The position numbers were made by a program, and so were the translations under genes. A DNA stretch of 64,000 nucleotides from positions 128,053 to 192,052 of the IMG/VR virus record IMGVR_UViG_3300045988_176357; one strand, 5' to 3'. This DNA is from a virus. Shown piece by piece: positions 789 to 59,475 of this stretch (positions are counted from its first letter, which is position 1; the number at the start of each line of letters is the position of its first letter). The notes beneath the pieces were generated by a model. The model worked only from the letters and a program-made list of their open reading frames with translations, was not told the DNA's origin and did no database searches.

Positions 789-1871
789 AAACGAAAGATA
801 TATCTTGTCAGTGACTGCCATGTGAAGTCACGATTATGGACCAACTTTGCTGCTGTGCAGGGCGACGCCTACATGGCAATGCGCAAGATGGCATCCGAAA
901 CCGACCCGTCAAGTGTGCTGATCTCCTGTGGAGATTTGCTCGACTCGAACAGACCCTCCAATGTCGACCTTGCCGAGACAGCCGAATTCCTGAACCACTT
1001 TCACAGGGTGCTGTACATAGCTGGCAACCATGACGACTGTCAGCCGTCTATCGTGCCTGTGATGTGTCCTTATGCGTTGCATCTGACACCTGATGATGTC
1101 GTTCGTGAAGGCAATCTCGTCATCTGCGGCATTGACTGGCAGCGCAGCAGGGAAGCATTCCTTGAGTGCCTTGCTCAGGCTGCACAAACACTCAGTGACG
1201 AGACCAAAGATGGCGGTCAACCCGTATTGATCATGCACCAGGCTGTGCACGATTTCCTGTCCATCGACGGCGCCAGCATGTGCACAGCAAAGGAAATCCT
1301 GGATACCGTAGGACAGGACGTCCTTGTGTACTCAGGCGACATCCATGTTGTGCAGCATGTCGCTTCCAGCCTTGGCAAAGGCAGAGTACAGTCTCCAGGT
1401 CCGCTCGTCCCTCAGGACACTTTGCAGGCCCGTAGACAGCAGGTTTACTGGGAACTCGACAGTGACACCGGGGTACCCACCCGGCACCCCGTCAGCGTGC
1501 GTTCTTTTGCGTTTCTTGACAGTGCCGCTCCCGACTTCGACCTTGCAGCGTCTCTGGATGCTCTTGACAGAAGCCTTGAGCTGCCGCCTGTTGCGATACT
1601 GCAGGTGCACGGTGACTATGTGCCGCCTAAAAGTCAGCTCAACAGAGAGGACTGCATTGTAGTTGTCCGTACGGAACGGACTTCGACAGAAGTAAGAACT
1701 GCAGATGAGTCCAGTGTAACTACACTGGAGGAAGCCATAGCTCAGGAAATTGAAGCTACCGAACCGCTGCTTGCTGACGTGTTGAAGCCGTTGGTGGACA
1801 GGCTGACAACTGCGGATAAACCTGACGAGCTTCTATCGACATTGCTTACGAATTGGGAGGTGACCACATGA
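786..1871 (+). CDS. Mre11/SbcD-like nuclease (calcineurin-like phosphoesterase)
   Basis: Motifs LVSDCH, GDLLD, GNHDD; sits upstream of a Rad50-like gene as in T4 gp47-gp46. Confidence 0.75.
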   Translation: MKRKIYLVSDCHVKSRLWTNFAAVQGDAYMAMRKMASETDPSSVLISCGDLLDSNRPSNVDLAETAEFLNHFHRVLYIAGNHDDCQPSIVPVMCPYALHLTPDDVVREGNLVICGIDWQRSREAFLECLAQAAQTLSDETKDGGQPVLIMHQAVHDFLSIDGASMCTAKEILDTVGQDVLVYSGDIHVVQHVASSLGKGRVQSPGPLVPQDTLQARRQQVYWELDSDTGVPTRHPVSVRSFAFLDSAAPDFDLAASLDALDRSLELPPVAILQVHGDYVPPKSQLNREDCIVVVRTERTSTEVRTADESSVTTLEEAIAQEIEATEPLLADVLKPLVDRLTTADKPDELLSTLLTNWEVTT

Positions 1872-2116
1872 TACAAGTCAAACACATGGATCTGTTTCAT
1901 TTCTGCCGGTTCGACAAGCTGTCGCTTGATGTACAGCCAGGTCTAACCAGAATAGCAGGTCCCAATGGCTCAGGTAAGACGACGGTCTTCAGAGCCCTGA
2001 TCTACGGTCTGACCGGTTGGTGTGATCCGACATGGGGCACACAAAGCGACCTGCAGCAGGACGATGAAAGCGTTCCAGGCTATGTCGAACTGACACTGTC
2101 GGTAGACGGCGAGGCT
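1853..2116 (+). CDS. Rad50/SbcC-like ATPase, exon 1 (Walker A GPNGSGKTT)
   Basis: N-terminal P-loop; ORF runs into the IStron 5' end (gct|taacaacc). Confidence 0.7.
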
Positions 2117-2605
2117 TAACAACCTCCATTGAGGAGTGATCCTCATTGCAAAGAAAGTGAATTGCTAATAGATCCCAAGAGCCTCACGATGCCTGTAACA
2201 AGGATCGAAAGAGAAAACAAAGAAGTGAGGATACCGCAAGGCGACAGTAAGCCTAAACGGGAGTGACAACGGACGTTTAGCAGCCGAGCCTTGTATCGAG
2301 AGATACCCGGTACAAGGAAGGTTCATCGACTAGGACATCGTGTCCGTACCCGAGCAGCCGTGTGCGTGATAACGCACGAAAGCAAGGGGAAGTACTCTGG
2401 CTCAGGAATGAGTCAATGAAATAGTCAGTGCTTCATGGAAACATGAAGAGTGGTCAGGAGTGACAACCTGAAACCTGCTACTGGGCGGCAACCGGTAGTG
2501 AACAGAACCATGGACTTCAATTGTATTGTTATTTCGTCAAGTTTTATTTACCGTTTTGATCTTTACAGAACGGAGTTATAATACTCTCAGTAACTGGAGA
2601 ACACT
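2117..2605 (+). ncRNA. group-I-like ribozyme portion of IStron A
   Basis: ~490 nt conserved across copies at 10680, 41443, 44361 and 51944, and the transposase-less copies at 31726 and 63703. Confidence 0.5.
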
Positions 2606-3739
2606 TTGGAACCAAGAGCACACATAATCAGATTGTACCCGACAAGGGCACAGGAGAAGCAGCTGAAGAATACCATCGGCTGCGCTCGTTATGCGTACAA
2701 TTGGGCTCTCGAGAAGTGGCGGGAGATGTATGCCGCACATGATAAGGACAAGGCTTCTCCAAAGCCAAGTGCCTTGAAGCTGACCAAGTTATGGACTCAG
2801 GAGAAGCCTGACTGGGCACATGAGACAGCTTATTGCAGCCAGCAAAGAGCGATACATAACGTAGGCGTCGCTTATCAGCGCCTTTAGAGGGGCTTATCGG
2901 CGAAGCCGAAGTTCCATAAGAAGGGCGGCAAGGAGACGTTTTACGTTGATAATGCGAAGGTCGCATGGTACGGCAATAGAATCCAGTTGCCCGACATCGG
3001 ACGTGTCCGCGTAGCGGAGCAGATCCGTTTCGAGGGCAAGGTAATGGGCTACACAGTGTCCCATTATGCCGGACAGTGGCATCTCATAGCTCAGGTCAAC
3101 GCCGAAGGCGACGTGAAACCTTACTGCGCCGATCCCGAGTCCGTCGTCGGTATCGACGTAGGACTTCTGAATCCGGCTGTAGCCTCCGATGGAACCGTCT
3201 TGCAGCTCCCCATAGAGAAGCTCCAAAAGCTTGACGCCAAGCTCAGGCGGCAGCAGAAGGCACTCTCCAGAAGTCAGCGCAACTCCAGAAACCACGCGAA
3301 GCTTCTCGTAAAGAAGCAGCGTACGCAGAATAAGATCAACAACATCCGAAAGGATGCAGTACATAAGTTCACGACCACCATTGCCAAGAGCCACGGCAAG
3401 GTAGTCATCGAAGATCTGGACATCCAAGGAATGAAGGATAAAGCTCCTTCAAGAGCCGTCAGAAGGGCGCATAACAGTTCCCTCATGGGCGCCATCCATC
3501 GGCAGCTCTCCTACAAAGTCCAGCACCTGATCAAGGTGAATCGCTTCTTCCCGTCTTCCAAGACCTGCAGCAACTGCGGGCACATAAGGAGCGCCCTTGA
3601 TTTAAGTGAACGTACATATCATTGCGACCACTGCGGAGCGGTCATCGACCGCGACCTCAATGCCGCAATCAACTTGATGAAATCAGGGCTGGTCAAGCCC
3701 GAAGCGTCTGTGGAGCAAGTCGGTACCGACTTGCGTTGA
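2606..3739 (+). CDS. tnpB: TnpB (IS605 OrfB family, RuvC-like + zinc finger CxxC..CxxC) with in-frame TAG at 2885-2887
   Basis: Same frame either side of the TAG; homologous to the intact copy at 11173-12288; C-terminal CSNCGH...CDHCG. Confidence 0.75.
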
Positions 3740-3779
3740 AGCAGAAAGTACAAACGGACGCAACGTCCGTAAGTTCATG

Positions 3780-5462
3780 ACAGAATACGTCCTGAAGAGG
3801 TTTGCAGGGACTGGTACGAAGCTGGTCGACACATTATGTAAAGACGATGCAATAATTGTTAAGAATCGTCAAAAAATAAATGCATGGTTAGAGCAGTTCA
3901 CAGGCATCTCTATGCCGGTAATGGCACAGTTGATGTGGTTGCGACAGGAAAACTCATCTTGGCTGCTGACGGCTACAGCTGCTCAGATCAACCAGTTCCT
4001 CGGTCTCATTTTCGACACCAAAAAGCTTGAGACCTACAGACAGCATCTGAAGAATGCCTGTGACAGCATACCGAAGCTGCGCGATGACTTTGACACAAGA
4101 AGGAAGCAAGCTGCAGAGACATTGCACCAGCAGTCCTCGCAGAAGGAGCTGCTGTCACAACAGCTGCAGGAACAGCAGGCACTTGTACAGGCTACACGGG
4201 AAACGCTGCAGGCATTTGGTAACAGCATGTCTGTAGCCGACCGTGACAAGATGCTGCGTCTGTGCGAACAGGAACTGGCAGTCTACAACAGAGACCTCGA
4301 CAAGTATAGGGATCTGCAGGAAGCTCCTGTCGTGGATATTGAAACCGAGACAGCAGCTGAGACTGCATTGGTCTCCAAAATATCTGCACAGCGGCTTGAA
4401 AAGTCAACTTGTGAGCGGATGCTGAACAGTGCCCGTGCCGATAGAGACAACAGCAAGTGGAGGCTTGATCAGCTGCGTCATATACATACGCCTGACACCT
4501 GTGAACTATGTGGTTGCAACCTCAGTACCAGTCCGGAAACGTACCGTAACAACAAAGTAAAACTGTTACTGCAGCAGTCTTTAAGCTACGAAGAGGCCAT
4601 CAGAACCTTTTCTGAGACCTACGAAACCAGTGCACATAAATGCATTGAACTGGAAAAGCGTATGGCCCTGCTTGAACATGCTATTGCTTCAGATAATAAA
4701 GTGCTGGAATCAATCGGACAGAAACGTGCTGAAAGACTCCGGTACATGGAACAGCTGCAGCATAAAACAGAGCTTCAACACAAGATTGAACAGGTGACTG
4801 CTGAAATCGAAAAGCTCAAGGCAACACCTGTGTACGATGCGTCTATATCGAAGCAGCAGATTGAAAGCATGCTTCGCAGTGCCGAAGCCAGAGAGACGGA
4901 ACTGAAATCCGCATATGAGACCTGTATTGCTTCTATTGCGTCTGCACAACAGATAATACATGATGCAGAAGAAGATGCTGTCAGGTATAAACGTAACGAA
5001 CGTGTGCGCCAGGTTCTGTCGACTTTGCGTGATGTTTTGTCACAAAGCAGAGCACAGGCAAGATACCTTAACAGCAAGATATCTGCCTTGAATGGCAATA
5101 TAGCTCACTATCTGCAACTGTCCGAGATGCCTTTCACAGTCTTCCTCGACCCTGCAGAGCATGTTTTCAAGTACAGGATGGATGATTGTGATGTGCAGCA
5201 TCAGGCAGGCATGCTGTCTGGTGCACAAAAGGCTGCCGCCGCAATTGCAATACAGATGTCGCTCGTTGTTACGGCAGTGCCGGATCTGACATTGCTTCTG
5301 CTGGATGAAGCGGATGCTTCGTTGTCACCGGAGAACAAAGTAATTGCTACCAAGCTTTACAGGGTCCTTGCAGAGACGCTCAGTGGAAGCGATGGCAGCA
5401 CATTCGTCATAAGTCAGTCAGACACTGTTGCTGCAGAATGTGACAGAGAAATAACACTATAA
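3780..5462 (+). CDS. Rad50/SbcC-like ATPase, exon 2 (coiled coil, CxxC zinc hook, signature motif and Walker B LLLDEAD)
   Basis: CELCGC hook in a coiled-coil region; C-terminal MLSGAQK...LLLDEADASLS. Confidence 0.7.
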   Translation, partial: TEYVLKRFAGTGTKLVDTLCKDDAIIVKNRQKINAWLEQFTGISMPVMAQLMWLRQENSSWLLTATAAQINQFLGLIFDTKKLETYRQHLKNACDSIPKLRDDFDTRRKQAAETLHQQSSQKELLSQQLQEQQALVQATRETLQAFGNSMSVADRDKMLRLCEQELAVYNRDLDKYRDLQEAPVVDIETETAAETALVSKISAQRLEKSTCERMLNSARADRDNSKWRLDQLRHIHTPDTCELCGCNLSTSPETYRNNKVKLLLQQSLSYEEAIRTFSETYETSAHKCIELEKRMALLEHAIASDNKVLESIGQKRAERLRYMEQLQHKTELQHKIEQVTAEIEKLKATPVYDASISKQQIESMLRSAEARETELKSAYETCIASIASAQQIIHDAEEDAVRYKRNERVRQVLSTLRDVLSQSRAQARYLNSKISALNGNIAHYLQLSEMPFTVFLDPAEHVFKYRMDDCDVQHQAGMLSGAQKAAAAIAIQMSLVVTAVPDLTLLLLDEADASLSPENKVIATKLYRVLAETLSGSDGSTFVISQSDTVAAECDREITL

Positions 5463-9597: not shown

Positions 9598-10679
9598 AGT
9601 ACAAGAAAGGTGAATTCGGTTACTGGTGGACCAGGAAAAATGAGGATATTGAAGGCGGAGAGTATGAGGGCTCCATATGTTGTCCTGAAAATCTTACGTC
9701 TTTAAGAGGAGCACCACGAATAGTGACAGGTGAATTCTTTTGTCACCGTTGCCGTATCACAACACTGAGAGGAGCGCCTGAGAAAGTAGGCGGAAATTTT
9801 AGCTGTGTTGAAACGAAGCTGACAGATCTGAAAGGAGCTCCTAAAGAAGTCGGCGGTAACTTCTACTGTGACATGTGCGGGCTGATATCTCTGGAAGGAG
9901 GTCCTCGCAGGATAGGAGGAAGCTTTTACTGCGATAACAACAAGCTCACTTCGTTAGAGGGCGGTCCCACTGAGATTTTCGGTGACTACAGATGCAGCTA
10001 TAACGAGCTTAAAAATTTGTTAGGCGCACCAGAAGTTATTCCTGGCGATTTCATCTGCAGTGAAACCACTCTTAATTCACTGGAGGGCTGTCCAAAAGTA
10101 GTGAAGGGCTCATTGATCCTGGACTATAATTCGCTCATATCCTTGGAGCATTGCGCTAAAAGTGTAGGAGGGGACTTCAATGTAAACTTCAATGGGCTTA
10201 AGTCGTTGTTAGGCGGGCCCGTATCTGTAGGAGGATCCTATAAGTGCGTGAACAATGATCTGCGTACTCTTTTTGGTTGTCCGTCAGTCATAAACGGAGA
10301 CTTTGAGTGCGCAGGCAATGCACTGAATGATCTTGCCTCCTGTCCAAGTAAAGTAACAGGTAATTTTGATTGCTGTAGTAATCATCTGGTTACCTTGGAA
10401 GGAGGTCCCACAGAGGTAGGCGGCGACTATGACTGCTCCGTCAATAATCTACAGACGCTTAAAGGAGCTCCATCGTGTGCTAACGGTGATTTTGATTGCA
10501 GCTTCAATGAATTGACAAGTCTTGAAGGCTCTCCTGATGTGGTGGCTGGAGAATTCGTCTGTCATAATAACAAATTGGAGTCTTTGGTCGGAGGACCTAG
10601 CGTAGTGTCCGCTCACTATTGCTGTTCGTACAATAACTTGAAGTCCCTGAGAGGGATTGCTCATAAAATCGGTGGAGCT
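9594..10679 (+). CDS. second BspA-like LRR protein, exon 1
   Basis: Same N-terminus and repeat pattern as 5473; ORF runs into the IStron B 5' end (gct|taacaact). Confidence 0.55.
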
Positions 10680-11172
10680 TAACAACTCCCTTTAACCAGT
10701 GATGGTTATTGAACAAGAAAGTGAATTGCTAATAGATCCCAAGAGCCTCACGACGCCAATAAAATGGATCGAAAGAGAAAACAAAGAAGTGAGGATACCG
10801 CAAGGCGACAATAAGCCTAAACGGGAGTGACAACGGACGTTTAGCAGCCGAGCCATGCGTTCGACAGAACGCCAGCGCATGGAAGGTTCATCGACTAGGA
10901 CATTGTGTCCGTACCCGAGCAGCCATGTGCGTGATAACGCACGAAAGCAAGGGGAAGTACTCTTGGTTGGGAACAACCAAATGAAATAGTCAGTGCTTCA
11001 TGGAAACATGAAGAGCGGTTAGGAGTGACAACCTGAAACCTGCTACTGGGTGGCAACCGGTAGTGAACAGAACCATGGACTTCAATTGTACTTTAATTTC
11101 ATCAAGAACATTTAACGTTTTGATCTTTACAGATACGGTGTATAATACACCTAAACTGAAGGTGTAAATTTC
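10680..11172 (+). ncRNA. group-I-like ribozyme portion of IStron B
   Basis: Conserved with the other copies. Confidence 0.5.
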
Positions 11173-12288
11173 ATGATCAGAACAAACGTCATAAGATTGT
11201 ACCCGACAAGGGCACAGGAAGCGCAGCTGAATAACACAGCTGGCGCTTGTCGTTTCGCATGGAATAAAGCCCTCAGTTACTGGGATGAGCAATATGAAGC
11301 TCATCTTAAGGATAAATCCATTCCGTTACCGATTTCTTCCAAAGTAGCAAGCTGGTATAAAGACAACCGCGAAGAATGGGCGTCCGAAACATCTTCTGTC
11401 TGTCAGCGCCAGGAAATACTTCACCTTGGCAAAGCCTTCCACAGCTACTTTAGACGTCCGGACCATTTCGCACATTCGAAGTTCCACAAGAAGGGAATTA
11501 AGGACTCATTCGAGGTTCCGAATGACAAGGCGAAAATCAAAGACGGCAGACTTTCATTGCCGAAGATAGGCGAAGTCAAAATGGCTGAGCCGCTTCGCTA
11601 CCAAGGCAAGATATGCAGCTACACAGTAAAGAAGTCAGGCGGCAACTGGTATGTTCACATACCTGTGGAAACAGGTAAGGACGAGAGAGTTCGTTGCATC
11701 AATCCAGAGTCCGTCGTCGGTATCGACGTAGGACTTCTGAATCCGGCTGTAGCCAGCGACGGCACCAAGCTGGAGCTCCCAAAGGAAACCTTGGACAAGC
11801 TCGACGCCAAACTCAGGCGACAGCAAAAGGCACTCTCCCGTTCACAAAGGAACTCCAGAAACCATGCCAAGCTTCTTCTCAAGAAGCAGCGTACTCAAAA
11901 TAAGATCAACAACATCCGAAAGGATGCAGTACACAAGTTCACGACCGCCATTGCCAAGAGCCACGGCAAGGTAGTCATTGAGGATCTGGATATAAAAGAG
12001 ATGAAGGCCAAGGCCCCCGCACGTTCAGTGCGTCGCGCCTACAACAGCTCCCTCATGGGCGCCATTCGCTGGCAGCTCTCTTACAAAGTCCAGCACCTGA
12101 TCAAGGTGAATCGTTTCTTCCCGTCTTCCAAGACCTGCAGCAACTGCGGGCACATAAAGGGCGACCTCACCGTAGGTGAACGTACATATCATTGCGACCA
12201 CTGCGGAGCGGTCATCGACCGCGACCTCAACGCCGCAATCAACTTGATGAAAGCAGGGCTGGTCAAGCCCGAAGTGTCTGTGGAGTAA
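11173..12288 (+). CDS. tnpB: TnpB, intact, 371 aa
   Basis: IS605 OrfB N-terminus MIRTNVIRLYPT; C-terminal zinc finger; Shine-Dalgarno site upstream. Confidence 0.85.
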   Translation: MIRTNVIRLYPTRAQEAQLNNTAGACRFAWNKALSYWDEQYEAHLKDKSIPLPISSKVASWYKDNREEWASETSSVCQRQEILHLGKAFHSYFRRPDHFAHSKFHKKGIKDSFEVPNDKAKIKDGRLSLPKIGEVKMAEPLRYQGKICSYTVKKSGGNWYVHIPVETGKDERVRCINPESVVGIDVGLLNPAVASDGTKLELPKETLDKLDAKLRRQQKALSRSQRNSRNHAKLLLKKQRTQNKINNIRKDAVHKFTTAIAKSHGKVVIEDLDIKEMKAKAPARSVRRAYNSSLMGAIRWQLSYKVQHLIKVNRFFPSSKTCSNCGHIKGDLTVGERTYHCDHCGAVIDRDLNAAINLMKAGLVKPEVSVE

Positions 12289-12349
12289 GCTGGTACCAGC
12301 TTACGTTGAATCAGAAAGTACAGACGGACGCAATGTCCGTAAGTTCATG

Positions 12350-12590
12350 ACAGACATATATTGCGCCGATAATGAGCTGCCTGTTGCTGACAGCAAAAGA
12401 GCAAGATACGCTTTCGAAGCCAAGGATAATCTGCTGGAGGTATGTGGTGGCTTATAACAAGAACGTCGAGTATTTGTACTCCGTCGTATTTCCTTCGTTT
12501 AGTTCCAGCAAGGCGGTGCATGATGAGCTGGTGCACAGACACAGGAAAGAGACGGAAAAGGTGGGATATGTCCGAAGCAAGTTTGACTGA
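12350..12590 (+). other. 3' exon of LRR gene 2, with an apparent frame discontinuity
   Basis: Frame starting at 12350 continues the LRR pattern (IGGATDIYCADNELP) but stops at ~12457; a different frame (12372-12590) matches the LRR C-terminal domain (AVHDELVH vs AMHDGEAYAH). Confidence 0.35.
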
Positions 12591-20594: not shown

Positions 20595-20643
20595 CTAAAA
20601 CATTCAGCCGGGTACTTATGTGCCCGGCATAAGGACAAACGAA

Positions 20644-21891: not shown

Positions 21892-21892
21892 T

Positions 21893-24661: not shown

Positions 24662-24662
24662 A

Positions 24663-32183: not shown

Positions 32184-33227
32184 CTTCGAAGCGGAGCCTT
32201 CACACCGCGAGGTGTGTCGAACAAGAAAGTGAATTGCTGGGAGTGCATAATGCCTGCGAGGCTACAGCGTAACCGCAAGGTAAGCGCGACAGCTGCGAAA
32301 GCAGAAAGAACACGCAGGATGGCATAAGGTGACAGTAAGCCTAAGTGCTGTGACAATTGCTGATCAGCAGCCGATCAAGGGATCTCCTAAGGCGAAAGCT
32401 ATGGAGCCCGGAAAGGGTTCAGAGACTAAGCGCTCCTTCTCTGGAAACGGAGAAGATGATATAGTCCGATTGTATTTAAATATTATTGCTGTATAATTAG
32501 AATATATAAGGCATTAACCACACAGAATTAACATGGACACAAAACCCGTTGGTTTCATTTACAGAATATATTGTACGTTGTAGTACTGTAGCAAAAGCTA
32601 TATAGGGCAGACACGACACAGCATATAGAAAAGGTTCGCTCAGCACTGTTGTCCTGGAGCGAAGCGAAAGACTTACATAGACAGAGCTATCGCATATCTA
32701 GGTAAATAGCATTTTTGTATCGAGTAGCTTGCAGAAGCACAAACGCTTCAGTAGTTAAATAAGCTGTAGATCTAGTATATAGAGAAGTACGGTAGTTTGT
32801 TTCCGGGTGGATTTAATATATCTAAAGGAGGTACAGTACCGTAGTTTACTTACTCTGGTAAGCCTGTAGTGCATTACTAGACCGGTATTGTATATAGAAA
32901 CAGTCAGTAGGCTGCATAGGCTACAGGTTGTAATGCTTCAGATATTCGTAGTATAGCCAACAAACGTATAAAGTCTACAAAAGGGAATCACTTTTATTGG
33001 TAGTTTACAGCTTTATAGGCTTATTTGGACTTTTGGAATACTCCGGATAAGAATGGTCCGAAGCGTATTATCAATGTCAGTACTGGATAGGTGTTTTAGT
33101 CACAGATAGCTGTATGCAGAAAATACAACCTAACTAAGTCACAGGTATCCAGAATGTGCCTAGGCAAAACAGCTAGTCTGAAGTCGTGTCCTTATGTATT
33201 TGAGTTTTACCAGCAATAAGCAGTTAG
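32184..33227 (+). ncRNA. polA intron 2: second type of group-I-like core (32186-32468, sharing the 5' module) plus a GIY-YIG HEG
   Basis: Core has a close homolog at 34910-35194; ends with G at 33227; junction restores DYS|AELVALAES (compare DYSQIELRILAHLS). Confidence 0.55.
32533..33219 (+). CDS. GIY-YIG homing endonuclease with NUMOD1 DNA-binding module; 15 in-frame TAG codons, no TAA/TGA
   Basis: With TAG read as a sense codon: MDTKPVGFIYRIYCTL.YCSKSYIGQTRHSI.KRFAQH ... STG.VF.SQIAVCRKYNLTKSQVSRMCLGKTASLKSCPYVFEF; stops with TAA 9 nt before the 3' splice site. Confidence 0.7.
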
Positions 33228-33465: not shown

Positions 33466-34498
33466 TAAATAATGTAAAGGAATGTAAAATGTAGTATAGA
33501 TGTTTGGAGTGTGGGTGTCTGTTCTAGGCTAAGCAACCGGCTAAATACTGCTCGCAAGCACATAAACAAAGGAAACAGAACCACAAAAGATAGGTGTATA
33601 TCTGTTTAAATTGCGGTTGTAAATTTTAGAGAGCAAAGCGTTCTGATTATGTTTTTTGCGGGCATAAATGCCGGTGTGCATATAGATAGAGTCATCCTTA
33701 GTTCGACTAGAGATAGTTCGTAGTTAGTAGAATGCAAGCGGATAACACACTGAAGTTCAGTAATAGATAGGCAAAAGCTAAAGCTAATGACATATATTGT
33801 GGTAAAACCCGGTTACGGTGGTCATAGGAAGCTTTAGATGCTTAGCTGTAGAGACGTGGTATATCAGTAACAGATTTTGGTCATAGGTGCTACAATAAAA
33901 CTTTAGCCCAATCGCCCTACGCATAGGTAATTGCGTCTAAATAGAAAACTTTAGATAAGCGTAGACGTATATATGCAAAGAAGAAAGCACTCGGCCTTAT
34001 TGTTACTGAAAAGTCTACTAACCAGAAGGTAAGATAGGCTATAATTAAATAGAGATATGGAATATGCTAGTGCTGTGGTTACTGTCAAAATGTCGATGCT
34101 TTGCAGTTACATCATGCAGATATGGATAGAAGCCACAATAATAAAGCTAATCTAGTTCTCTTATGCGCTAATTGTCATCAGATACTGCATACACGTATAA
34201 AGCGCAATTGGCATATGTATACGTAGCCTAAAGTCACATGTATATTACAATAGTTGCAAAGTATGTAGGCCGAAGTAAAAGAGCGGAATAAAGCGGGAAC
34301 TGCCGACAGGCAAACCCGAACCGAAGGCACGCAGGAATGCGTGTCAGGGGCAACGCGTAGCAGTACGTCCAGCTCGGATATGAACTGCCAAGAGGCCGCT
34401 CCTCTGCAGCCTATGCTGCAAAAATGTACGCTGAACACCGGTGTATGGACAGAAAGACCGGGAGCTATGGGATAAAAAGCCCGTAGGATAACAAATTG
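33466..34498 (+). ncRNA. polA intron 3 carrying an HNH HEG
   Basis: 5' splice site after ggT, 3' splice site after ttG; junction restores NFG|LPGGMKGKRLYQHL (compare NFGLIYGMSAFGLARQL). Confidence 0.55.
33489..34475 (+). CDS. HNH homing endonuclease with N-terminal CxxC zinc-ribbon repeats; 20 in-frame TAG codons, no TAA/TGA
   Basis: With TAG as sense: ..YRCLECGCLF..YCS..YICLNCGCKF... CQCCGYCQNVDALQLHHADMDRSHNNKANLVLLCANCHQILH; ends with TAA ~25 nt before the 3' splice site. Confidence 0.65.
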
Positions 34499-36831: not shown

Positions 36832-36848
36832 CTTAGAAGGATATTCAT

Positions 36849-38648: not shown

Positions 38649-38842
38649 GTGCAACTGCCGTGTGTGTAAGAGATCTCGGAAGCTCGAAGCTGTGCTGAGC
38701 AGGTACAACATGAAGCCAAAGGATGTAAATTTCCTGCACGCCATACTGACCAGCCTGATGACAGCAGAACTGGACAGAGACTGGGCACTGGTCGAGCTGA
38801 AGGAGGTGGCGTAGAAAATGACACAAGAAAAAGGAAAGCAAA

Positions 38843-41442: not shown

Positions 41443-43010
41443 AGGACTCCTTGGCGCGTGAGCGCCATTGAACAAGAAAGTGAATTGCTGGAACACCTTA
41501 ACGGGTCATGCCGAAGGCAATCAGCAGCCGAGCTTATGGATGCCCAGACCGGGCGCCGTGAGAAGGTTCATCGACTATCCCGGAAGGGAGTACCCGAGCA
41601 GCCATGTGACCGGCAGGTCACGAAAGCAAGGGGAAGCACTCTGGCTCAGGAATGAGTCAATGATATAGTCAGTGCGCTTATGGAAACATAAGGAGTGGTC
41701 AGGAGTGACAACCTGAAACCTGCTACTGGGCGGCAACCGGTAGTGAACAGAACCATGGTCTCAAAATAGCAACATTATTTTGACGTTTTGATTTTCATAA
41801 AGGTGATGTATATTATCTGTATACAATAAGGAGCGCCATGTACAGAGCCCATAAGATACGCATAGATTGCACAAAAGAGCAGCACAGTCTGTTAATGCAG
41901 ACTGCAGGCTGCGCTCGTTATGCGTACAACTGGGGACTCGAGAAGTGGGGCAAGCAGTACGAAGCCTGGAAGGCTGATAGCAGCTTGGAGGAACCCAACT
42001 GGGTTAACATATCCAGACAGTGGACACAAGAGAAACCTGAATGGGCAAACAAGACAGCACGCAGTGCTGTTACCTGCTCACTGCGTAATCTCGGCACCGC
42101 CTTCAAGAACTTCTCAAGGCGCAAAGCAAAGTACCCGAAGAGGCATAAGAGGTCTCAAGGAATCTCCTTCCAGCTTGGAAACGATACCTGCAGTATCGAA
42201 GGCAACCGCATCAGGCTGCCTATCATAGACTACGTAAAGCTCCGTGAGACTCCACGATTCCAAGGCAAGATAACAGGCTACACAGTGCAGCTCATCGCTT
42301 CCCACTGGTACGTGACAGTCGCCTTCGACTGTCCAGACGTCCCCAAAGAAGCTCCAGAGTCCGTCGTCGGTATCGACGTAGGACTCCAGCACCCGGCTGT
42401 AGCCTCCGATGGAACAGTACTCCAGCTCCCTCTTGAGAAACTACAGAAGCTCGAAGCCAAACGGCGCAGAGCTCAGCGAGCCCTTTCAAGGAGCAAACGC
42501 AATTCCAATGCGCGAGAGCGCAAGCGTGATAGACTCCAACGTATACAGCAGAGGATCACCAACATCCGACAGGATGCAGTTCACAAGTTTACGACTGCAG
42601 TGTGCAAAAACCACGCCACTGTAGTCACCGAAGATCTGGACATAAACGAGCTCAAAGACAAGGCCCCCGCACGTTCAGTGCGCAGAGCCTACAACAGCTC
42701 CCTTATGGGACTCATTTTGTTCCAGATCTCGTACAAGGCGGTGCACCACGTAAAGGCACCCAAGTTCTTCCCGAGCACCAAGAGATGCTCAACTTGTGGA
42801 CACATTAAGGAGGCCATGCCTCCGCAAATCAGAACATACCATTGCGACCACTGCGGAGCCCATCTCGACAGAGATGAGAACGCAGCTCGCAACTTGATGT
42901 TGCAACCGTGGGTCACACGGTAAGAGGCGCGGTGATGGTACAGGCAGCGTCAGCTGCAGGTACCAGATGATCCGCGAAGACAGTCCGGTGCAACGCCGGA
43001 TGAGATCATG
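41443..43010 (+). mobile_element. IStron copy 4 (subfamily 2), apparently intergenic
   Basis: Hairpin ggcgc-gtga-gcgcc then the core; right-end hairpin atccgg-tgcaacg-ccggat + gagatcatg. Confidence 0.65.
41838..42923 (+). CDS. tnpB: TnpB, intact, 361 aa
   Basis: OrfB N-terminus; zinc finger. Confidence 0.85.
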   Translation: MYRAHKIRIDCTKEQHSLLMQTAGCARYAYNWGLEKWGKQYEAWKADSSLEEPNWVNISRQWTQEKPEWANKTARSAVTCSLRNLGTAFKNFSRRKAKYPKRHKRSQGISFQLGNDTCSIEGNRIRLPIIDYVKLRETPRFQGKITGYTVQLIASHWYVTVAFDCPDVPKEAPESVVGIDVGLQHPAVASDGTVLQLPLEKLQKLEAKRRRAQRALSRSKRNSNARERKRDRLQRIQQRITNIRQDAVHKFTTAVCKNHATVVTEDLDINELKDKAPARSVRRAYNSSLMGLILFQISYKAVHHVKAPKFFPSTKRCSTCGHIKEAMPPQIRTYHCDHCGAHLDRDENAARNLMLQPWVTR

Positions 43011-43119: not shown

Positions 43120-43761
43120 GTGCGCCGCAAAACAGTGGAGTATCCAATGCTGCTGACAGAGTTGTTCGATACATGGGGAACCAAGCCTCTGCTGATGACG
43201 ACTGCGACCAACGGCTTGACACCCGGCAAAGACAAGCTGCTTGGGGTCTGTGTCAAGGACCCTGAGTTCAGCTCAGGTGACAGGCTGCTGCTCAACTACA
43301 CAACAGGCGTAGAACTTCAGCAGTCGTCGAAGTTTCATGGCATCAGTCAGCAGGACATGCAGAGCGCAGGCTTGCAGGAAGCCCAGTTCAAAGACGAGTT
43401 GGACAAGCTGCTATCAGAGAACAGCGTCGCGGTACTCACTTATAATGTACCTTTCCAGAGCAGCTTCTTAGGCGAATGTCTTCCGGAACTGGAAAGCTTG
43501 CCCCTCTATGACCTGACGATCATCGAGAAGGCAATCAGAAACGCCTATGCCTTCGACACTGAAGAGCTGGCGACGTTCAGCTCTTTCTACGCTGCCTGCT
43601 GCCACGCGGCTATGCCTGTACCTCTGGCTACACTGTGCAGGAATCTGAAGATGACTCGACAGCCTCCGCCAGGACAGCTTCCAATGGAACGGATGCTGGA
43701 CGTTTTGCAAGCGCTTTACAACGTAGCTTGCCTTGAAGATATTTCTGTGCTTCCGAGTTGA
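43120..43761 (+). CDS. DnaQ-like (DEDD) exonuclease-fold protein with substituted catalytic residues
   Basis: MTTATNGL in place of FDTETTGL; YN in place of HN; Exo III YDL retained. Confidence 0.35.
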   Translation: MRRKTVEYPMLLTELFDTWGTKPLLMTTATNGLTPGKDKLLGVCVKDPEFSSGDRLLLNYTTGVELQQSSKFHGISQQDMQSAGLQEAQFKDELDKLLSENSVAVLTYNVPFQSSFLGECLPELESLPLYDLTIIEKAIRNAYAFDTEELATFSSFYAACCHAAMPVPLATLCRNLKMTRQPPPGQLPMERMLDVLQALYNVACLEDISVLPS

Positions 43762-44260
43762 AGCTGGGAGTGACGAATCCTGTACCCAAAGCAGTCATCT
43801 ATATCTGCACCTGGGTACAGGGCTTAATGACAGGTGTGCAGGTCTAATCGATTTGCAGCATGCTGTCCTGTTTGTCAAAATTAACCCACAGGAATGTCTA
43901 TCCCACCGGACAATACAGAAGTACGAATCCCTAGCAGGCATCAAGCAACAGTGATTTGTCCGTGGCCTGATCAGCCGGTTTGACAAATTTGGTTTGAACC
44001 TACACGATGCAGCCGGACTTGGAAACTGTGCAGTTAGTCTGTGGTGCAGGTGTCACATAGTTGACCGATAACTGTACCATAGTCTAAGAGACAGAGGATA
44101 CCTGCTATTCGGGATACAGAGGGTATGAAGCTATCATCCCTTTAGTCGTTACTTCCTGCTTCTGTACGTGCGCAGCCTTATACTTGCTCAAGTCTATGCC
44201 GGATGAGACTGCGCCATCTTTAATTGAATACAATTTATGATACTACATAGGAGCTCCTAT
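43762..44260 (+). ncRNA. candidate retron msr/msd-type structured region (speculative)
   Basis: ORF-free ~500 nt directly upstream of the RT 5' exon; 10-bp inverted repeat cctgtaccca/tgggtacagg (43779-43821) and others. Confidence 0.2.
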
Positions 44261-44261
44261 T

Positions 44262-44360
44262 GTGTTGGATACATCTATCAGACCTCCGGATAAATGGAGG
44301 GCAGCAGCAATACCAAAGAAAGACGGATCGTTCAAAATATACTACATATTAGGTATACGT
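44262..44360 (+). CDS. retron-type reverse transcriptase, 5' exon (..AIPKKDGSF..)
   Basis: IPKKDGSF finger motif in a frame open from 44241; start codon uncertain (GTG or TTG). Confidence 0.45.
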
Positions 44361-45928
44361 AAAGGACGCCTTGGCGCGTGAGCGCCATTGAACAAGAAAG
44401 TGAATTGCTGGGACACCTTAACGGGTAATGCCGAAGGCAATCAGCAGCCGAGCTTATGGATGCCCAGACCGGGCGCCATGAGAAGGTTCATCGACTATCC
44501 CATATGGGAGTACCCGAGCAGCCTGGCTGCGACAGCAGCGAAAGCAAGGGGAAGCACTCTGGCTCAGGAATGAGTCAATGATATAGTCAGTGCGCTTATG
44601 GAAACATAAGGAGTGGTCAGGAGTGACAACCTGAAACCTGCTACTGGGCGGCAACCGGTAGTGAACAGAACCATGGTCTCAAAATAGCAACATTATTTTG
44701 ACGTTTTGATTTTCATAAAGGTGATGTATATTATCTGTATACAATAAGGAGCGCCATGTACAGAGCCCATAAGATACGCATAGATTGCACAAAAGAGCAG
44801 CACAGTCTGTTAATGCAGACTGCAGGCTGCGCTCGTTATGCGTACAATTGGGGTCTCGAGAGGTGGGGCAAGATGTACGAAGCCTGGAAGGCTGACAACA
44901 GCTTGGAGAAACCCAACTGGAAAAACATATCCAGACAGTGGACACAAGAGAAACCTGAATGGGCGAACAAGACGACACGCAGTGCTGTCACTTGCTCACT
45001 AAGCAATCTCGGTACTGCCTTCAAGAACTTCATAAGGCGCAAAGCAAAGTACCCGAAGAAGCACAAGAGGTCCCAAGGAATCTCATTCCAGCTTGGAAAC
45101 GATACCTGCAGTATCGAAGGCAACCGCATCAGGCTGCCTATCATAGACTACGTAAAGCTCAGAGAGCTTCCGCGCTTCCAAGGCAAAATCACAGGCTACA
45201 CAGTTCAGTACATAGCTTCCCACTGGTACGTGATAGTCGCCTTCGACTGTCCAGACGTCCCCAAAGAAGCGCCAGAGTCCGTCGTCGGTATCGACGTAGG
45301 ACTCCAGCAACCAGCTGTAGCCTCAGATGGAACCAAGCTAGAGCTACCCATAGAGAAGCTCCAGAAGCTCGAAGCCAAACGACGCAGAGCTCAGCGAGCC
45401 CTTAGCAGGAGCAAGAGGAATTCCAATGCGCGAGAGCGCAAACGGGCCAAGCTTCAACGTATACAACAGAAGATCATCAACATCCGTCAGGATGCAGTTC
45501 ACAAGTTTACGACTGCAGTGTGCAAAAACCACGCAACTGTAGTCACCGAAGATCTGAACATAAACGAGCTCAAAGACAAGGCCCCCGCACGTTCAGTGCG
45601 CAGAGCCTACAACAGCTCCCTTATGGGACTCATTTTGTTCCAGATCTCGTACAAGGCGGTGCACCACGTAAAGGCACCCAAGTTCTTCCCGAGCACCAAG
45701 AGATGCTCAACTTGTGGACACATTAAGGAGGCCATGCCTCCGCAAATCAGAACATACCATTGCGACCACTGCGGAGCCCATCTCGACAGAGATGAGAACG
45801 CAGCTCGCAACTTAATGTTGCAACCGTGGGTCACACGGTAAGATGCGCGGTGATGGTGCTTGTGACATTCGTCACGAGCTCCAGACGATCCGCGAAGACA
45901 ATCCGGTGCAACGCCGGATGAGATCATG
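44361..45928 (+). mobile_element. IStron copy 5 (subfamily 2) inside the RT gene
   Basis: ~93% identical to copy 4; same ends. Confidence 0.65.
44756..45841 (+). CDS. tnpB: TnpB, intact, 361 aa
   Basis: Near-identical to 41838. Confidence 0.85.
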   Translation: MYRAHKIRIDCTKEQHSLLMQTAGCARYAYNWGLERWGKMYEAWKADNSLEKPNWKNISRQWTQEKPEWANKTTRSAVTCSLSNLGTAFKNFIRRKAKYPKKHKRSQGISFQLGNDTCSIEGNRIRLPIIDYVKLRELPRFQGKITGYTVQYIASHWYVIVAFDCPDVPKEAPESVVGIDVGLQQPAVASDGTKLELPIEKLQKLEAKRRRAQRALSRSKRNSNARERKRAKLQRIQQKIINIRQDAVHKFTTAVCKNHATVVTEDLNINELKDKAPARSVRRAYNSSLMGLILFQISYKAVHHVKAPKFFPSTKRCSTCGHIKEAMPPQIRTYHCDHCGAHLDRDENAARNLMLQPWVTR

Positions 45929-47933: not shown

Positions 47934-47944
47934 AAGGAAAAACG

Positions 47945-50521: not shown

Positions 50522-51943
50522 ATGATCATCATTGCAACTGCTAACAACAACGAAAACCTCAACAACATCAGGATCAACCTTGACAACAGCATCTCTCTCG
50601 GTCAGCTTCTCGACAGAGATGATGTTCGTGCATTCTTCCACAATGCCAGCAAAGAGAGCATTCTGGCAAGCCTCGTTACCATTGACGGACTCGATGCCTA
50701 TGCCATTACGAATGCGAGCTCTCTGACTGTTGACAATACTATGGAATTGCAGTTCGACATCTACGGCAGAGCACCGGAGACCGCACATACAGCTGCTGCT
50801 TCCGCCGGGTTCGTCACAATTACTCAGGGCGGAGGTTTCAACAGCAAGCGTGTGCCTATTGTGTCAGATACGACAAGAGCAGGGGATGTGCTTACACAGG
50901 ATGTGGCCAATTTCTTCGCCACAACTGTGGATACTCTGCACAATATGCGTATTCTTATCAATGATGTCGAGGCGGAAACAACAGCTGTACTGCACGACGG
51001 CGACGCGATTACTCTCATGTCCAGAAAGTGCGGCGACAAGGGGGCATGTGTACCCATTCTTGCAATTACGCATACTGACGGATCTGTGACGAGACATGCA
51101 GTCCTTGCAGGTTCCAGGCTCAAGGAATGTCTCTCCAGGATTGTTCCCGGTGCGGTAGTGCTGTCTATCGACGGTACAGCGGTACCCATGAACTTCTATG
51201 ATGCTATTGTAGAAGGCAAGCTGGTTGACAAGGACATGCAAGTGACTGTCAACGATAACAAGAAGTGCACGGTGCATTGCTGCGCCAATGACGGCAGTGA
51301 TCCGGTCGACATGATCCTGGATGATGGCAGTTCTGTGATGGACCTGCTTACCAAAGTACAGGACAAGTTTGAAAACGCTGAGATCTATGTCTTTGACGTG
51401 GACGGCGATCTGGTACCGGAAGCTTTCGCCGATACCATCCTGACTAATACACTTGTCGTTGATGGTATGTATGTAACTTTCAGTTCGCTGCGTGAGATGC
51501 CTGTTGTACATGGCTATATGAACATGGAAGACGACAGCGAAGAAGATGAAGAAGATGAAGAAGATGGTGCTGAGTATGCAGATGACGAGCAGGTACTTGA
51601 AGGTCCTGCAGAAGATGCTGTAGGCGCCGTAACAGTCGTTCTTCCCGGGGGCTTCAGCACCTCTCAGGTCGCAATCAGGAACAATGTGACGAAGCTTCGT
51701 GATGTTGTTCTCAGCGCACGTATTCTGAATATGTCTGCGATGAACGAAAGCCAGGCGCAGACTCTCGTATACACAGTGAACGATGTCGAGAGCAATCTCG
51801 ATGATACTCTGAGCATCGGTGATGTGATCCGGATGTCTGCACGTAAAGCAGGCGACAAAGGAAGTGCATTGAAAGTTACTGTCAAGCTGATGGATGCCAC
51901 CGAATTCCGGTATGACGTGGAGCCGGGGACAAGGCTCGAGGCT
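50522..51943 (+). CDS. multi-domain ubiquitin-like protein, exon 1
   Basis: Repeated ~90-aa modules ending (I/M)S(R/A)K(C/A)GDKG; acidic linker; ORF runs into the IStron E 5' end. Confidence 0.45.
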
Positions 51944-53606: not shown

Positions 53607-54017
53607 ACAGATTTCCTTATGTCTAATTATCCGGACTCCATTGTACTTGGCATCAATGGTGTCAGGGTAGATCCTGAGTTCTATGTGCCTGTTCTTGATG
53701 GCTTCACCCTGAACAGAGATACTGTGCTGATTGTGAAGGCCAGCCCGAAGATGACAGTGCACTGTTACTCCGGACATGTCGAGCCAAGCCTCTACTGCAC
53801 ATCTTATAAGATGAATTACGACAGTACCGTACAGGACTTGCTTAAACTGGTACAGAAGGACTTCGGCAATGAAGACATACGCGTGACGCAGATTGATCTC
53901 AAGGACGTACCGGAAGACTTTATGCAGGTTATCCTGGCAGGCACGTTTATTACAGAGCAAATGGTTGTTACTTTCAATGAGCTCAATGGAGCGGGAAAGG
54001 CACGCAAGACACTGTAA
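53607..54017 (+). CDS. multi-ubiquitin-like protein, exon 2 (ends ..NGAGKARKTL)
   Basis: In-frame continuation after the IStron. Confidence 0.45.
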   Translation, partial: TDFLMSNYPDSIVLGINGVRVDPEFYVPVLDGFTLNRDTVLIVKASPKMTVHCYSGHVEPSLYCTSYKMNYDSTVQDLLKLVQKDFGNEDIRVTQIDLKDVPEDFMQVILAGTFITEQMVVTFNELNGAGKARKTL

Positions 54018-59430: not shown

Positions 59431-59475
59431 AACATTCAGCCGGGTACTTATGTGCCCGGCATAAGGACAAACGAA

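What the first reader, a model, noticed from the sequence alone, without database searches (positions are those of the whole stretch)
2606..3739. Two near-identical tnpB copies share an in-frame TAG
tnpB in IStron copy A (TAG at 2885-2887) and copy E (52712-52714) keeps the same frame on both sides of the TAG. Homology to intact TnpB continues across it (..GVAYQRL * RGLSAKPKFHKKG.. versus ..FAHSKFHKKG.. in copy B). The other three tnpB copies have no internal stop.

Either TAG is decoded here, making TnpB production conditional on the recoding state, or one nonsense allele was copied to a second site. Copy E being a recent transposition of A supports the second reading equally well, so the two explanations are not distinguishable from sequence alone.
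Basis: partly seen in the sequence, partly recalled or inferred. Interest (0 to 1): 0.6.

Follow-up and report, generated by a model that had tools for sequence, protein, structure and literature searches.

The report
Conserved sense-read TAG in phage tnpB
The TAG inside two copies of an intron-borne RNA-guided nuclease gene (tnpB) is not a dead-gene lesion: the phage reads TAG as an amino acid, apparently glutamate rather than the usual glutamine, so full-length nuclease can be made only while that reading is active.

Summary
tnpB copies A and E each carry one in-frame TAG, at codon 94. The three other copies have none.

The same TAG occurs in at least four more alleles from other gut metagenomes, and at least four insertion sites are documented. 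These alleles differ by up to about 13% in nucleotides. They have no other premature stop or frameshift, and dN/dS is 0.04-0.25 on both sides of the TAG. The nearest non-TAG alleles have TGG (Trp) or CGG (Arg) at that codon.

The phage is about 192 kb, from human gut, and uncultured. It uses TAG heavily as a sense codon. The terminase just outside the window has 21 in-frame TAGs. Inside the window, a GIY-YIG gene has 15 and an HNH homing-endonuclease gene has 20. No real gene depends on TAG to terminate.

Five tests on four protein families point to Glu, not Gln (code 15). No suppressor tRNA was found in the roughly 40% of the genome I could read.

The TAG is therefore decoded, and TnpB production is tied to the recoding state. 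Whether that link is selected or merely tolerated is open.

The parts
2115..3783 (+). IStron copy A: group I intron plus tnpB, with no tnpA, inserted in an SbcC/Rad50-like ATPase gene.
   Evidence: Removing 2115-3783 joins 1868-2114 to 3784-5462. This gives a 641-aa ORF that is collinear with the uninterrupted gene of the IMG/VR relative and identical at 609 of 642 positions. It is homologous to copies B and E end to end.
2116..2448 (+). Group I intron ribozyme core of IStron A.
   Evidence: Rfam RF00028 matches over the full model (1-253) at 26.9 bits, E = 2.5e-4, which is below the gathering score of 50. The core motif AAGGTTCATCGACTA occurs at seven intron sites in the window.
2606..3739 (+). 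tnpB copy A: 377 codons, TTG start, TGA stop, read through the TAG at codon 94.
   Evidence: Pfam hits are HTH_OrfB_IS605 (E = 6.6e-16), OrfB_IS605 (1e-20) and Cas12f1-like_TNB (1.2e-17).
2885..2887 (+). In-frame TAG, codon 94 of tnpB A.
   Evidence: Seen directly in the sequence. The same codon is TAG in L001, L032, L033/L034 and L035. It is TGG in L037 and CGG in L036.
1868..2114 (+). Exon 1 of the SbcC/Rad50-like host gene of IStron A.
   Evidence: The Walker A motif GPNGSGKT is present. Pfam AAA_23 and SMC_N are recorded on the called product.
3784..5462 (+). Exon 2 of the same host gene.
   Evidence: The splice check is.
51942..53610 (+). IStron copy E.
   Evidence: This site is empty in the IMG/VR relative, where L001 reads ...CTCGAGG|ATTTCC.... 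Removing the element gives a 614-aa ORF.
52433..53599 (+). tnpB copy E. TAG at codon 94. The codon that is the stop in A is CGA here, so the ORF ends 11 codons later at a TAA.
52712..52714 (+). In-frame TAG, codon 94 of tnpB E.
10678..12353 (+). IStron copy B. Its tnpB (11173-12288) has no TAG and has Phe at the aligned position.
41838..42923 (+). tnpB copy C. No TAG; Ser at the aligned position.
44756..45841 (+). tnpB copy D. No TAG; Ile at the aligned position.
32533..33219 (+). GIY-YIG homing-endonuclease gene next to a group I intron. It has 15 in-frame TAG codons against 4 GAA/GAG. This is in-window evidence that TAG is a sense codon.
   Evidence: The Pfam GIY-YIG score is 34.1 bits with TAG read as Glu and 24.6 bits with Gln.
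33489..34475 (+). HNH-type endonuclease gene with 20 in-frame TAG codons.
   Evidence: The HNH motif was read by eye; Pfam gave no hit.
43577..44440 (-). Minus-strand ORF of unknown function with 11 in-frame TAG codons, lying between IStrons C and D.

Best explanation
The TAG at codon 94 of the A-type IStron tnpB is translated. The element sits in a roughly 192-kb uncultured human-gut phage that uses TAG as a sense codon. TAG makes up 4-7% of codons in its late and structural genes and in its intron-associated homing-endonuclease genes. TAG most likely encodes glutamate.

The codon arose from TGG (Trp) by one G-to-A change, at a position that also tolerates Arg, Phe, Ser and Ile in relatives. 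It has been kept since then in a family of alleles that move between insertion sites and phage strains.

What follows for the protein:
- Ribosomes finish the 377-aa RNA-guided nuclease only while the phage's TAG-decoding activity is present.
- Otherwise they release a 93-aa N-terminal HTH fragment.
- The intron ribozyme still splices the element out of its host mRNA either way.

What is shown: TAG is a sense codon in this phage, and the TAG-bearing tnpB is under in-frame purifying selection on both sides of the TAG.

What is inferred: decoding is confined to a late phase. This rests on the bimodal TAG use among genes and on published analogy. It is also inferred that TnpB from copies A and E is therefore delayed or reduced.

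What is not shown: that the delay is selected for, and which tRNA does the decoding.
For: (1) TAG is a sense codon in this phage.
- The terminase large-subunit gene lies 3-5 kb upstream of the window, in contigs identical or 99.7% identical to the overlapping start of the window. It has 21 in-frame TAGs and no other stop.
- The adjacent late block in a 94%-identical relative has 7-25 TAGs per gene.
- Inside the window, the GIY-YIG gene has 15 TAGs, the HNH gene 20, and a minus-strand ORF 11.

(2) TAG is not used as a terminator.
- Of 76 non-nested plus-strand ORFs, 37 end in TGA, 36 in TAA and 3 in TAG.
- Two of those three are the tnpB N-terminal fragments. The third has a TAA two codons further on.

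(3) The same TAG is present in four further alleles.
- They are L001 (IMG/VR), L032, L033/L034 and L035. All have a TTG start and no other premature stop or frameshift.
- The neighbouring codon 95 varies between AGG, AAG and ATG.

(4) Selection acts in frame on both sides of the TAG.
- dN/dS is 0.04-0.25 upstream and 0.12-0.21 downstream.
- In codons 95-167, which are specific to the A type, it is 0.06-0.26.
- Variable sites by codon position are 41/32/114 (p = 1e-14). Just downstream of the TAG they are 2/6/19 (p = 9e-5).
- In a simulation, 187 random substitutions left the frame open in only 0.23% of trials.

(5) Mobility.
- The relative has sites A and E empty and carries its TAG allele at another site.

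(6) Origin.
- The closest non-TAG alleles have TGG in an identical context, or CGG.

(7) Precedent.
- A group I intron endonuclease in an early gene of TGA-recoded Agate phages is preferentially recoded. The authors propose this delays the endonuclease until late infection (bioRxiv 10.1101/2021.08.26.457843).
Against: - No suppressor tRNA (anticodon CUA) or release-factor gene was found. I could examine the window, about 17 kb of flanks and about 30 kb of the relative's late block. Only a tRNA(CAT) and a tRNA-Leu(TAA) turned up in relatives. About 110 kb of the genome was out of reach.
- tnpB alleles are mosaic, so part of the low dN/dS downstream could come from intact donor alleles. This does not explain codons 1-167, where donors would normally also overwrite the TAG.
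- tnpB has only one TAG among 16 GAA/GAG Glu codons, and copies B, C and D have none. tnpB is therefore otherwise coded like the TAG-free gene class, and a single TAG is weak evidence for designed gating.
- The timing of TAG decoding is inferred, not measured.
Confidence: 0.8

Rival explanations
1. Neutral passenger. TAG is decoded, but it is just a tolerated missense change (Trp to Glu) at a variable position. Either the decoding is not usefully time-restricted for this gene, or the delay has no fitness effect. In that case there is no regulation to explain.
For: - The position is variable: W, R, F, S and I occur in relatives.
- Copies B, C and D in the same genome do without a TAG.
- Only one TAG occurs in 377 codons, whereas the GIY-YIG and HNH genes have 15-20.
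Against: - The TAG is kept in six alleles while codon 95 and about 187 other sites changed.
- None of the 16 GAA/GAG codons of tnpB drifted to TAG. This suggests TAG is generally avoided in this gene and that the codon-94 TAG is a special case.
- Neither point is decisive.
Confidence: 0.4
2. Dead allele. A nonsense mutation inactivated tnpB in one IStron, which was then copied. The copies persist because the intron keeps them harmless and TnpB is supplied in trans by intact copies.
For: - A and E share an identical 913-nt stretch that includes the TAG.
- Intact paralogues are present in the same genome.
Against: - The frame is intact and shows third-position-dominated variation on both sides of the TAG, in six alleles up to about 13% diverged.
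- In simulation, only 0.23% of neutral trials kept the frame open.
- TAG is demonstrably a sense codon in essential genes of this phage.
Confidence: 0.04
3. Split or re-initiated protein. Translation ends at the TAG and restarts just after it, giving a 93-aa HTH piece and a 283-aa nuclease piece that work together or separately.
For: - In L033/L034 the codon after the TAG is ATG (TAGATG), and gene callers predicted adjacent 93-aa and 283-aa products.
- Both halves are under purifying selection.
Against: - In A, E, L001 and L035 the next codon is AGG, and in L032 it is AAG. Neither is a start codon.
- The next candidate start in A is TTG at 2987, 34 codons downstream.
- From established knowledge of TnpB structure, the N-terminal region is part of one folded guide-RNA and DNA-binding unit.
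Confidence: 0.03
4. Host-provided decoding. TAG is read by a host system, such as pyrrolysine or a natural host suppressor, not by a phage-controlled switch.
For: - No phage suppressor tRNA was found in the parts examined.
- From memory, TAG-containing transposase genes are known in Pyl-decoding archaea.
Against: - TAG use is sharply bimodal between gene classes within one genome: 0 in about 73 genes against 4-7% of codons in others. This is the published signature of phage-controlled recoding.
- TAG positions align with conserved Glu, not with Pyl-type sites.
Confidence: 0.03

Closest known systems
Recoded intron homing endonuclease in stop-codon-recoded gut phages (Agate phages; Borges et al., bioRxiv 10.1101/2021.08.26.457843)
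   Same: [quoted passage not shown]
- Its nuclease ORF carries the phage's reassigned stop codon, so the nuclease can be completed only once recoding is active.
- The GIY-YIG gene of this window (15 TAG) is a direct counterpart.
   Different: - Here the nuclease is an RNA-guided TnpB in an IStron, not a protein-guided homing endonuclease.
- The codon is TAG rather than TGA.
- There is a single recoded codon at a non-synonymous site (Trp to TAG), not many preferentially recoded codons.
IStrons: group I intron fused to an IS200/IS605- or IS607-family element (CdISt1 of Clostridioides difficile; Tourasse et al. 2014, PMC4227781; review PMC13565253)
   Same: - A 5' group I ribozyme is followed by a 3' tnpB.
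- Removing the whole element restores the host ORF.
- tnpB is retained without tnpA.
- Insertion is after GAGG or GGAG, with G as the last exon base, as described for group B (IS607-type) IStrons.
   Different: - These elements are in a phage genome, at five copies in 64 kb.
- The 3' end is ...ATGACAG rather than the CGG described for group B.
- The ribozyme scores below Rfam's gathering threshold.
- One allele family carries a sense-read TAG.
Genetic code 15 phages (TAG read as Gln) such as crAss-like and Lak phages (PMC9523058, PMC11210395)
   Same: - TAG is a sense codon concentrated in late and structural genes.
- Standard-looking early genes lack it.
- TAG is avoided as a terminator.
   Different: - TAG here aligns with conserved Glu, never with conserved Gln.
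- TAG interchanges with GAA/GAG at invariant-Glu columns among relatives.
- Automatic callers nevertheless translated it as Gln (P0001).
TnpB of IS200/IS605 and IS607 elements (ISDra2 TnpB, PMC8612924)
   Same: - The same three Pfam domains are present.
- The RuvC-like D/E/D motifs and the CxxC...CxxC zinc ribbon are visible in the sequence.
   Different: No guide RNA, TAM or cleavage activity was tested here, and no tnpA partner is present.

Membership tests
TnpB (OrfB_IS605 / Cas12f-like RNA-guided nuclease) | The three-domain architecture: HTH_OrfB_IS605, OrfB_IS605 (RuvC) and the zinc-ribbon TNB domain. | tested here: met
   Pfam E-values are 6.6e-16, 1e-20 and 1.2e-17, all above the curated cut-offs, with codon 94 read as Glu.
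TnpB (OrfB_IS605 / Cas12f-like RNA-guided nuclease) | Catalytic RuvC D-E-D residues and the CxxC...CxxC zinc finger are intact. | tested here: met
   By inspection of the alignment: GIDVGL, VIEDLD, DRDLNAA, CSNCG and CDHCG are conserved in all five copies. The assignment of catalytic roles rests on knowledge of the family.
TnpB (OrfB_IS605 / Cas12f-like RNA-guided nuclease) | A guide (omega/re) RNA from the 3' end of the element, and TAM-dependent DNA cleavage. | not testable with these tools
   Only a conserved hairpin at 3754-3770 near the 3' end was noted.
IStron | A group I intron ribozyme at the 5' end of the element. | tested here: inconclusive
   RF00028 matches over the full model at 26.9 bits, E = 2.5e-4, below the gathering score of 50. 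Related introns in sister phages reach 51-55 bits.
IStron | Removal of the whole element restores the interrupted host ORF. | tested here: met
   For A, the result is a 641-aa ORF collinear with the uninterrupted gene of a relative. For E, it is a 614-aa ORF, and the empty site is seen in L001. Splicing itself was not tested.
IStron | An IS200/IS605- or IS607-family transposon module with its end signatures. For group B this means insertion after GG, G as the last exon base, and a 3' end of CGG. | tested here: inconclusive
   The 5' side fits: GAGG| for A and E, and GGAG| for B. The 3' end is ACAG, not CGG. No tnpA is present. The criteria are taken from review PMC13565253.
Stop-codon-recoded phage (TAG as a sense codon) | Many in-frame TAGs in conserved essential genes that are otherwise intact. 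| tested here: met
   Terminase has 21 TAGs. The late block has 7-25 per gene. GIY-YIG has 15 and HNH has 20.
Stop-codon-recoded phage (TAG as a sense codon) | TAG is not used as a terminator. | tested here: met
   Three of 76 ORFs end in TAG. Two are the tnpB fragments and one is backed by a TAA two codons later.
Stop-codon-recoded phage (TAG as a sense codon) | A phage-encoded suppressor tRNA with anticodon CUA. | tested here: inconclusive
   None was found in the window, the flanks or the relatives' loci. Published surveys find such tRNAs in only about 52-61% of TAG-recoded phages.
Genetic code 15 (TAG = Gln) | TAG positions align with Gln in homologues. | tested here: not met
   - At 21 terminase TAG columns, distant homologues have E 183, D 114 and Q 6.
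- A family HMM scores Glu 820.2 bits against Gln 806.8.
- At columns that are at least 80% Gln, the four recoded phages use CAG 20 times and TAG 0 times. At columns at least 80% Glu they use TAG 18 times and GAA/GAG 12 times.
- Pfam scores favour Glu over Gln by 9.6, 7.2 and 9.5 bits for Sigma70_r3, Baseplate_J and GIY-YIG. GpA_ATPase is neutral at -1.4 bits.

The most novel reading that the evidence does not exclude
This clade of roughly 190-kb gut phages reads TAG as glutamate. I could not find that reassignment described for any phage or bacterium in the searchable literature. Current gene callers silently mistranslate it as glutamine.

The clade's selfish nucleases are tied to that private codon. 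The intron-borne GIY-YIG gene, the HNH gene and one lineage of IStron TnpB could therefore be completed only in the recoded phase of infection.
Probability: 0.5. Interest if true: 0.8.

Novelty: new variant of a known kind. Interest (0 to 1): 0.62.

Why it matters
- It resolves an ambiguity that looked unresolvable from one window. An apparent nonsense codon in a mobile nuclease gene is a conserved sense codon.
- As far as I could find, it is the first case of an RNA-guided TnpB, rather than a protein-guided homing endonuclease, coupled to a phage's stop-codon recoding. That coupling would be a simple way to keep a genome-cutting enzyme off until late infection.
- The amino acid behind TAG appears to be Glu, not Gln. 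If that holds, code-15 annotation pipelines put the wrong residue at 4-7% of positions in the late proteins of this phage clade, and the list of natural stop-codon reassignments gains a member.
- It would also raise a testable question: how is a CUA-anticodon tRNA charged with Glu?

Tried and rejected
- GenBank phages: near-identity searches with IStron A and with 20 kb of the window found nothing. A terminase tblastn found only hits of 25% identity or less, mostly in phages of Bacillus, Listeria, Staphylococcus and Lactobacillus. No annotated relative was available.
- Suppressor tRNA hunt: ARAGORN and Rfam were run on the window and on 30-odd loci. I walked the IMG/VR contig, the flanks of the window's own genome, and 19 metagenome loci around the RNA-ligase gene. 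Only tRNA(CAT) and tRNA-Leu(TAA) were found. One pattern scan returned only 1.5 kb of new sequence, and one query was too short.
- A PDB sequence search with the GIY-YIG protein, meant to read off the catalytic Glu, gave no meaningful hit.
- The Pfam GpA_ATPase domain did not discriminate Glu from Gln, at 35.0 against 36.4 bits. Few TAGs fall inside the matched stretch.
- Micro-evolution test: between the window strain and the 94%-identical relative, TAG interchanges with CAG 10 times, with TAT once, and with GAG never. On its own this favours Gln. I set it aside for three reasons. The three terminase cases lie at variable columns. TAG-to-CAG is a transition, whereas TAG-to-GAG is a transversion. 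At greater divergence, TAG interchanges with GAA/GAG in 12 columns, including invariant-Glu ones. It remains a caveat.
- Looking up tnpB copy C elsewhere in the genome gave only a 3-kb contig.
- The listing of cluster P0121 contained unrelated pentapeptide proteins (P0241, P0242), so cluster sizes were not used as allele counts.
- No sigma-70-like promoter lies upstream of tnpB A on the plus strand.

Full report
**Observation**

Five tnpB homologues lie on the plus strand of the window:
- A: 2606-3739
- B: 11173-12288
- C: 41838-42923
- D: 44756-45841
- E: 52433-53599

Copies A and E each have a single in-frame TAG at codon 94, at 2885-2887 and 52712-52714. Homology to TnpB runs on both sides of it. 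Copies B, C and D have no internal stop.

With the TAG read through, copy A matches all three Pfam TnpB domains above their cut-offs.

**Anatomy**

Each tnpB is the 3' part of an element of about 1.67 kb. The 5' part is a group I intron. Rfam RF00028 matches 2116-2448 over the full model at 26.9 bits (E = 2.5e-4), which is below the gathering score. A shared core motif marks seven introns in the window.

Deleting 2115-3783 restores a 641-aa SbcC/Rad50-like ORF. It is collinear with the uninterrupted gene of a related phage and identical at 609 of 642 positions. Deleting 51942-53610 restores a 614-aa ORF, and that site is empty in the relative.

The elements are therefore IStrons that carry tnpB but no tnpA. 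They are inserted after GAGG or GGAG, with G as the last exon base. A recent review describes that pattern for IS607-type (group B) IStrons (PMC13565253). The 3' end (ACAG) does not fit that description.

**Relationship between A and E**

A and E are not simple copies.
- They are identical from 2196 to 3108, a stretch that includes the TAG.
- They then differ at 26 positions in 22 codons between 3109 and 3349. Nineteen of those codon changes are synonymous.
- At 14 of the 26 sites, E matches copy B.
- The stop codon of A is CGA in E.

This is a gene-conversion mosaic.

**Is TAG a stop in this phage?**

No. The gene at the start of the window is found on a 192,159-bp scaffold and a 141,535-bp contig from human-gut metagenomes. 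These are 99.7-100% identical to the window where they overlap. The second contig joins the end of the window back to its start, so the genome is about 192 kb and circularly permuted.

Evidence that TAG is read as sense:
- Three to five kb upstream of the window lies the terminase large-subunit gene. It has 21 in-frame TAGs and no other stop.
- An IMG/VR relative (IMGVR_UViG_3300045988_177579), about 94% identical, has 20 TAGs in its terminase. It also has a late-gene block of more than 25 kb with 7-25 TAGs per gene.
- Inside the window, a GIY-YIG endonuclease gene beside an intron has 15 TAGs. An HNH endonuclease gene has 20, and a minus-strand ORF has 11.

Evidence that TAG is not used to terminate:
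- Of 76 non-nested plus-strand ORFs, 37 end in TGA, 36 in TAA and 3 in TAG.
- Two of those three are the tnpB fragments.
- The third has a TAA two codons later.

**Is the tnpB TAG translated?**

The same codon-94 TAG, in the same context, occurs in more alleles:
- in the IMG/VR relative (L001), at a different insertion site, with sites A and E empty there;
- in L032, L033/L034 and L035, from other metagenomes.

These alleles differ by up to about 9% in the first 500 nt and about 13% beyond that. All start with TTG. None has another premature stop or a frameshift. Codon 95 varies between AGG, AAG and ATG.

Evidence for selection on the reading frame:
- Pairwise dN/dS is 0.04-0.25 upstream of the TAG and 0.12-0.21 downstream.
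- In codons 95-167 it is 0.06-0.26. This part is specific to the A type, where B-type donors are too diverged to explain the pattern.
- Variable sites fall 41/32/114 by codon position (p = 1e-14). Just downstream of the TAG they fall 2/6/19 (p = 9e-5).
- In simulation, 187 random substitutions left the frame open in 0.23% of trials.

The nearest non-TAG alleles have TGG (Trp) in an identical context, or CGG (Arg). One CGG allele sits at the same insertion site as a TAG allele. More distant homologues have W, F, S or I at that position.

The codon therefore arose as TGG to TAG at a tolerant position. It has been maintained in a translated gene.

**Which amino acid?**

Public gene calls translate these TAGs as Gln (P0001). 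Five tests say Glu.
1. Composition: TAG-rich genes have 2.2% Glu plus 4.6% TAG, against 6.3% Glu in TAG-free genes.
2. Homologue columns: at the 21 terminase TAG columns, 25 distant homologues have E 183, D 114 and Q 6. Several of these columns are invariant Glu.
3. Family HMM: a model built from those homologues scores Glu best, at 820.2 bits against 806.8 for Gln.
4. Pfam: scores favour Glu over Gln by 9.6 bits (Sigma70_r3), 7.2 (Baseplate_J) and 9.5 (GIY-YIG). GpA_ATPase is neutral.
5. Codon use across four recoded terminases:
   - Columns at least 80% Glu in homologues use TAG 18 times and GAA/GAG 12 times.
   - Columns at least 80% Gln use CAG 20 times and TAG never.
   - TAG interchanges with GAA/GAG in 12 columns.

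One caveat remains. Between the two closest strains, TAG interchanges with CAG 10 times and with GAG never. I attribute this to transition bias at variable sites.

The literature I could search treats phage TAG recoding as Gln.

**Mechanism**

*Shown:* TAG is a sense codon in this phage, and the TAG-bearing tnpB is under in-frame selection on both sides of the TAG.

*Inferred:*
- TAG use is bimodal: none in about 73 genes, and 4-7% of codons in others. This implies that decoding is switched on during infection, as proposed for other recoded phages.
- Borges et al. report an intron endonuclease in an early gene that is preferentially recoded, and they propose this delays the endonuclease until late.
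- By the same logic, copies A and E would give only a 93-aa HTH fragment early and full-length TnpB late.

*Not shown:*
- Whether that delay is selected. tnpB has only this one TAG among 16 ordinary Glu codons, and copies B, C and D have none. A neutral, tolerated missense codon remains a serious possibility.
- The decoding tRNA. None was found in the window, its flanks or the relatives' loci. About 110 kb of the genome could not be reached.

**Verdict**

The feature is real and the decoded reading is right. It is a new variant of a known kind, namely recoded-stop coupling of an intron-borne nuclease, here an RNA-guided TnpB.

The most novel result is the side observation that TAG appears to mean Glu in this phage clade.

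Noticed in passing
Late genes just outside the window (L005 4279-6105; L008 9626-20008; L012 1-17496). In the window: 32533-33219, 33489-34475 and 43577-44440(-).: TAG appears to encode glutamate, not glutamine. It aligns with invariant Glu in terminase homologues and never sits at conserved Gln. It interchanges with GAA/GAG among relatives, and Pfam scores are 7-10 bits better with Glu in three families. Public gene calls use code 15 (Gln). I found no report of TAG read as Glu in phages.
   Followed up: yes
Window 2318, 10883, 31846, 41563, 44483, 52145 and 63823 (intron core motif sites).: The window holds seven group I introns in 64 kb. Five are tnpB IStrons. One is followed by a GIY-YIG gene. 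One is an ORF-less intron in the anaerobic ribonucleotide reductase (NrdD) gene at the end of the window. Which sites are occupied differs between 94%-identical strains: sites A and E are empty in the relative, which instead has copies at window-equivalent positions about 55081 and 59112.
   Followed up: partly
Window 3109-3349 compared with 52936-53176.: A patch of 26 substitutions, 19 of 22 codon changes synonymous, lies between otherwise identical stretches of copies A and E. E matches copy B at 14 of the sites. This points to gene conversion among tnpB paralogues. The 3' halves of A-type alleles elsewhere are also B-like.
   Followed up: partly
Window 3737-3739 compared with 53564-53566.: The TGA stop of tnpB A is CGA in copy E, which extends that ORF by 11 codons into the 3' end of the element, the presumed guide-RNA region. 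Other alleles end earlier, at codon 371.
   Followed up: no
L005 compared with L008, TAG-rich genes.: Between the two closest strains, TAG interchanges with CAG 10 times, with TAT once, and with GAG never. The TAG-to-CAG route is a one-transition path between Glu and Gln that the standard code does not offer. It is also the one observation that favours Gln.
   Followed up: partly
Window 15862-18363.: An 833-aa ORF contains an intein. Hom_end_hint and LAGLIDADG homing-endonuclease domains sit inside a KaiC/RecA-like ATPase. Because it is translated with its host protein, it is TAG-free, unlike the free-standing endonuclease genes.
   Followed up: no
Window 45922-50148.: A reverse transcriptase gene (RVT_1) starts at the 3' end of IStron D. 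It is followed by genes with Prok-E2_D, Prok-JAB and ThiF domains, which together resemble a ubiquitin-like conjugation module.
   Followed up: no
Window 20599-21891, 24567-25625, 35722-36831, 36837-37733, 38822-39721 and 59452-60483.: There are at least six paralogous genes with pentapeptide repeats, most also carrying DUF7666. Some share nucleotide similarity, as seen in the matches between L001 and the window.
   Followed up: no
Window 21881-22300.: This is the only other plus-strand gene that reaches a TAG (22289-22291). It has a TAA two codons later, so it terminates within three codons under either reading of TAG.
   Followed up: no
L014 13568-13645, L018 17599-17675, L024 18667-18744 and L039 10699-10783.: The only tRNAs seen in about 300 kb of this phage and its relatives are a tRNA(CAT) about 8 kb downstream of the RNA-ligase gene and a tRNA-Leu(TAA) next to one terminase. 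No CUA anticodon was found.
   Followed up: partly
L012 1224-2024.: The late block of the relative encodes a sigma-70-like factor that itself carries 15 TAGs. The TAG-free region just upstream of the window encodes a second sigma factor without TAG (L005 7499-8299). A recoded late sigma factor could make late transcription depend on TAG decoding.
   Followed up: no
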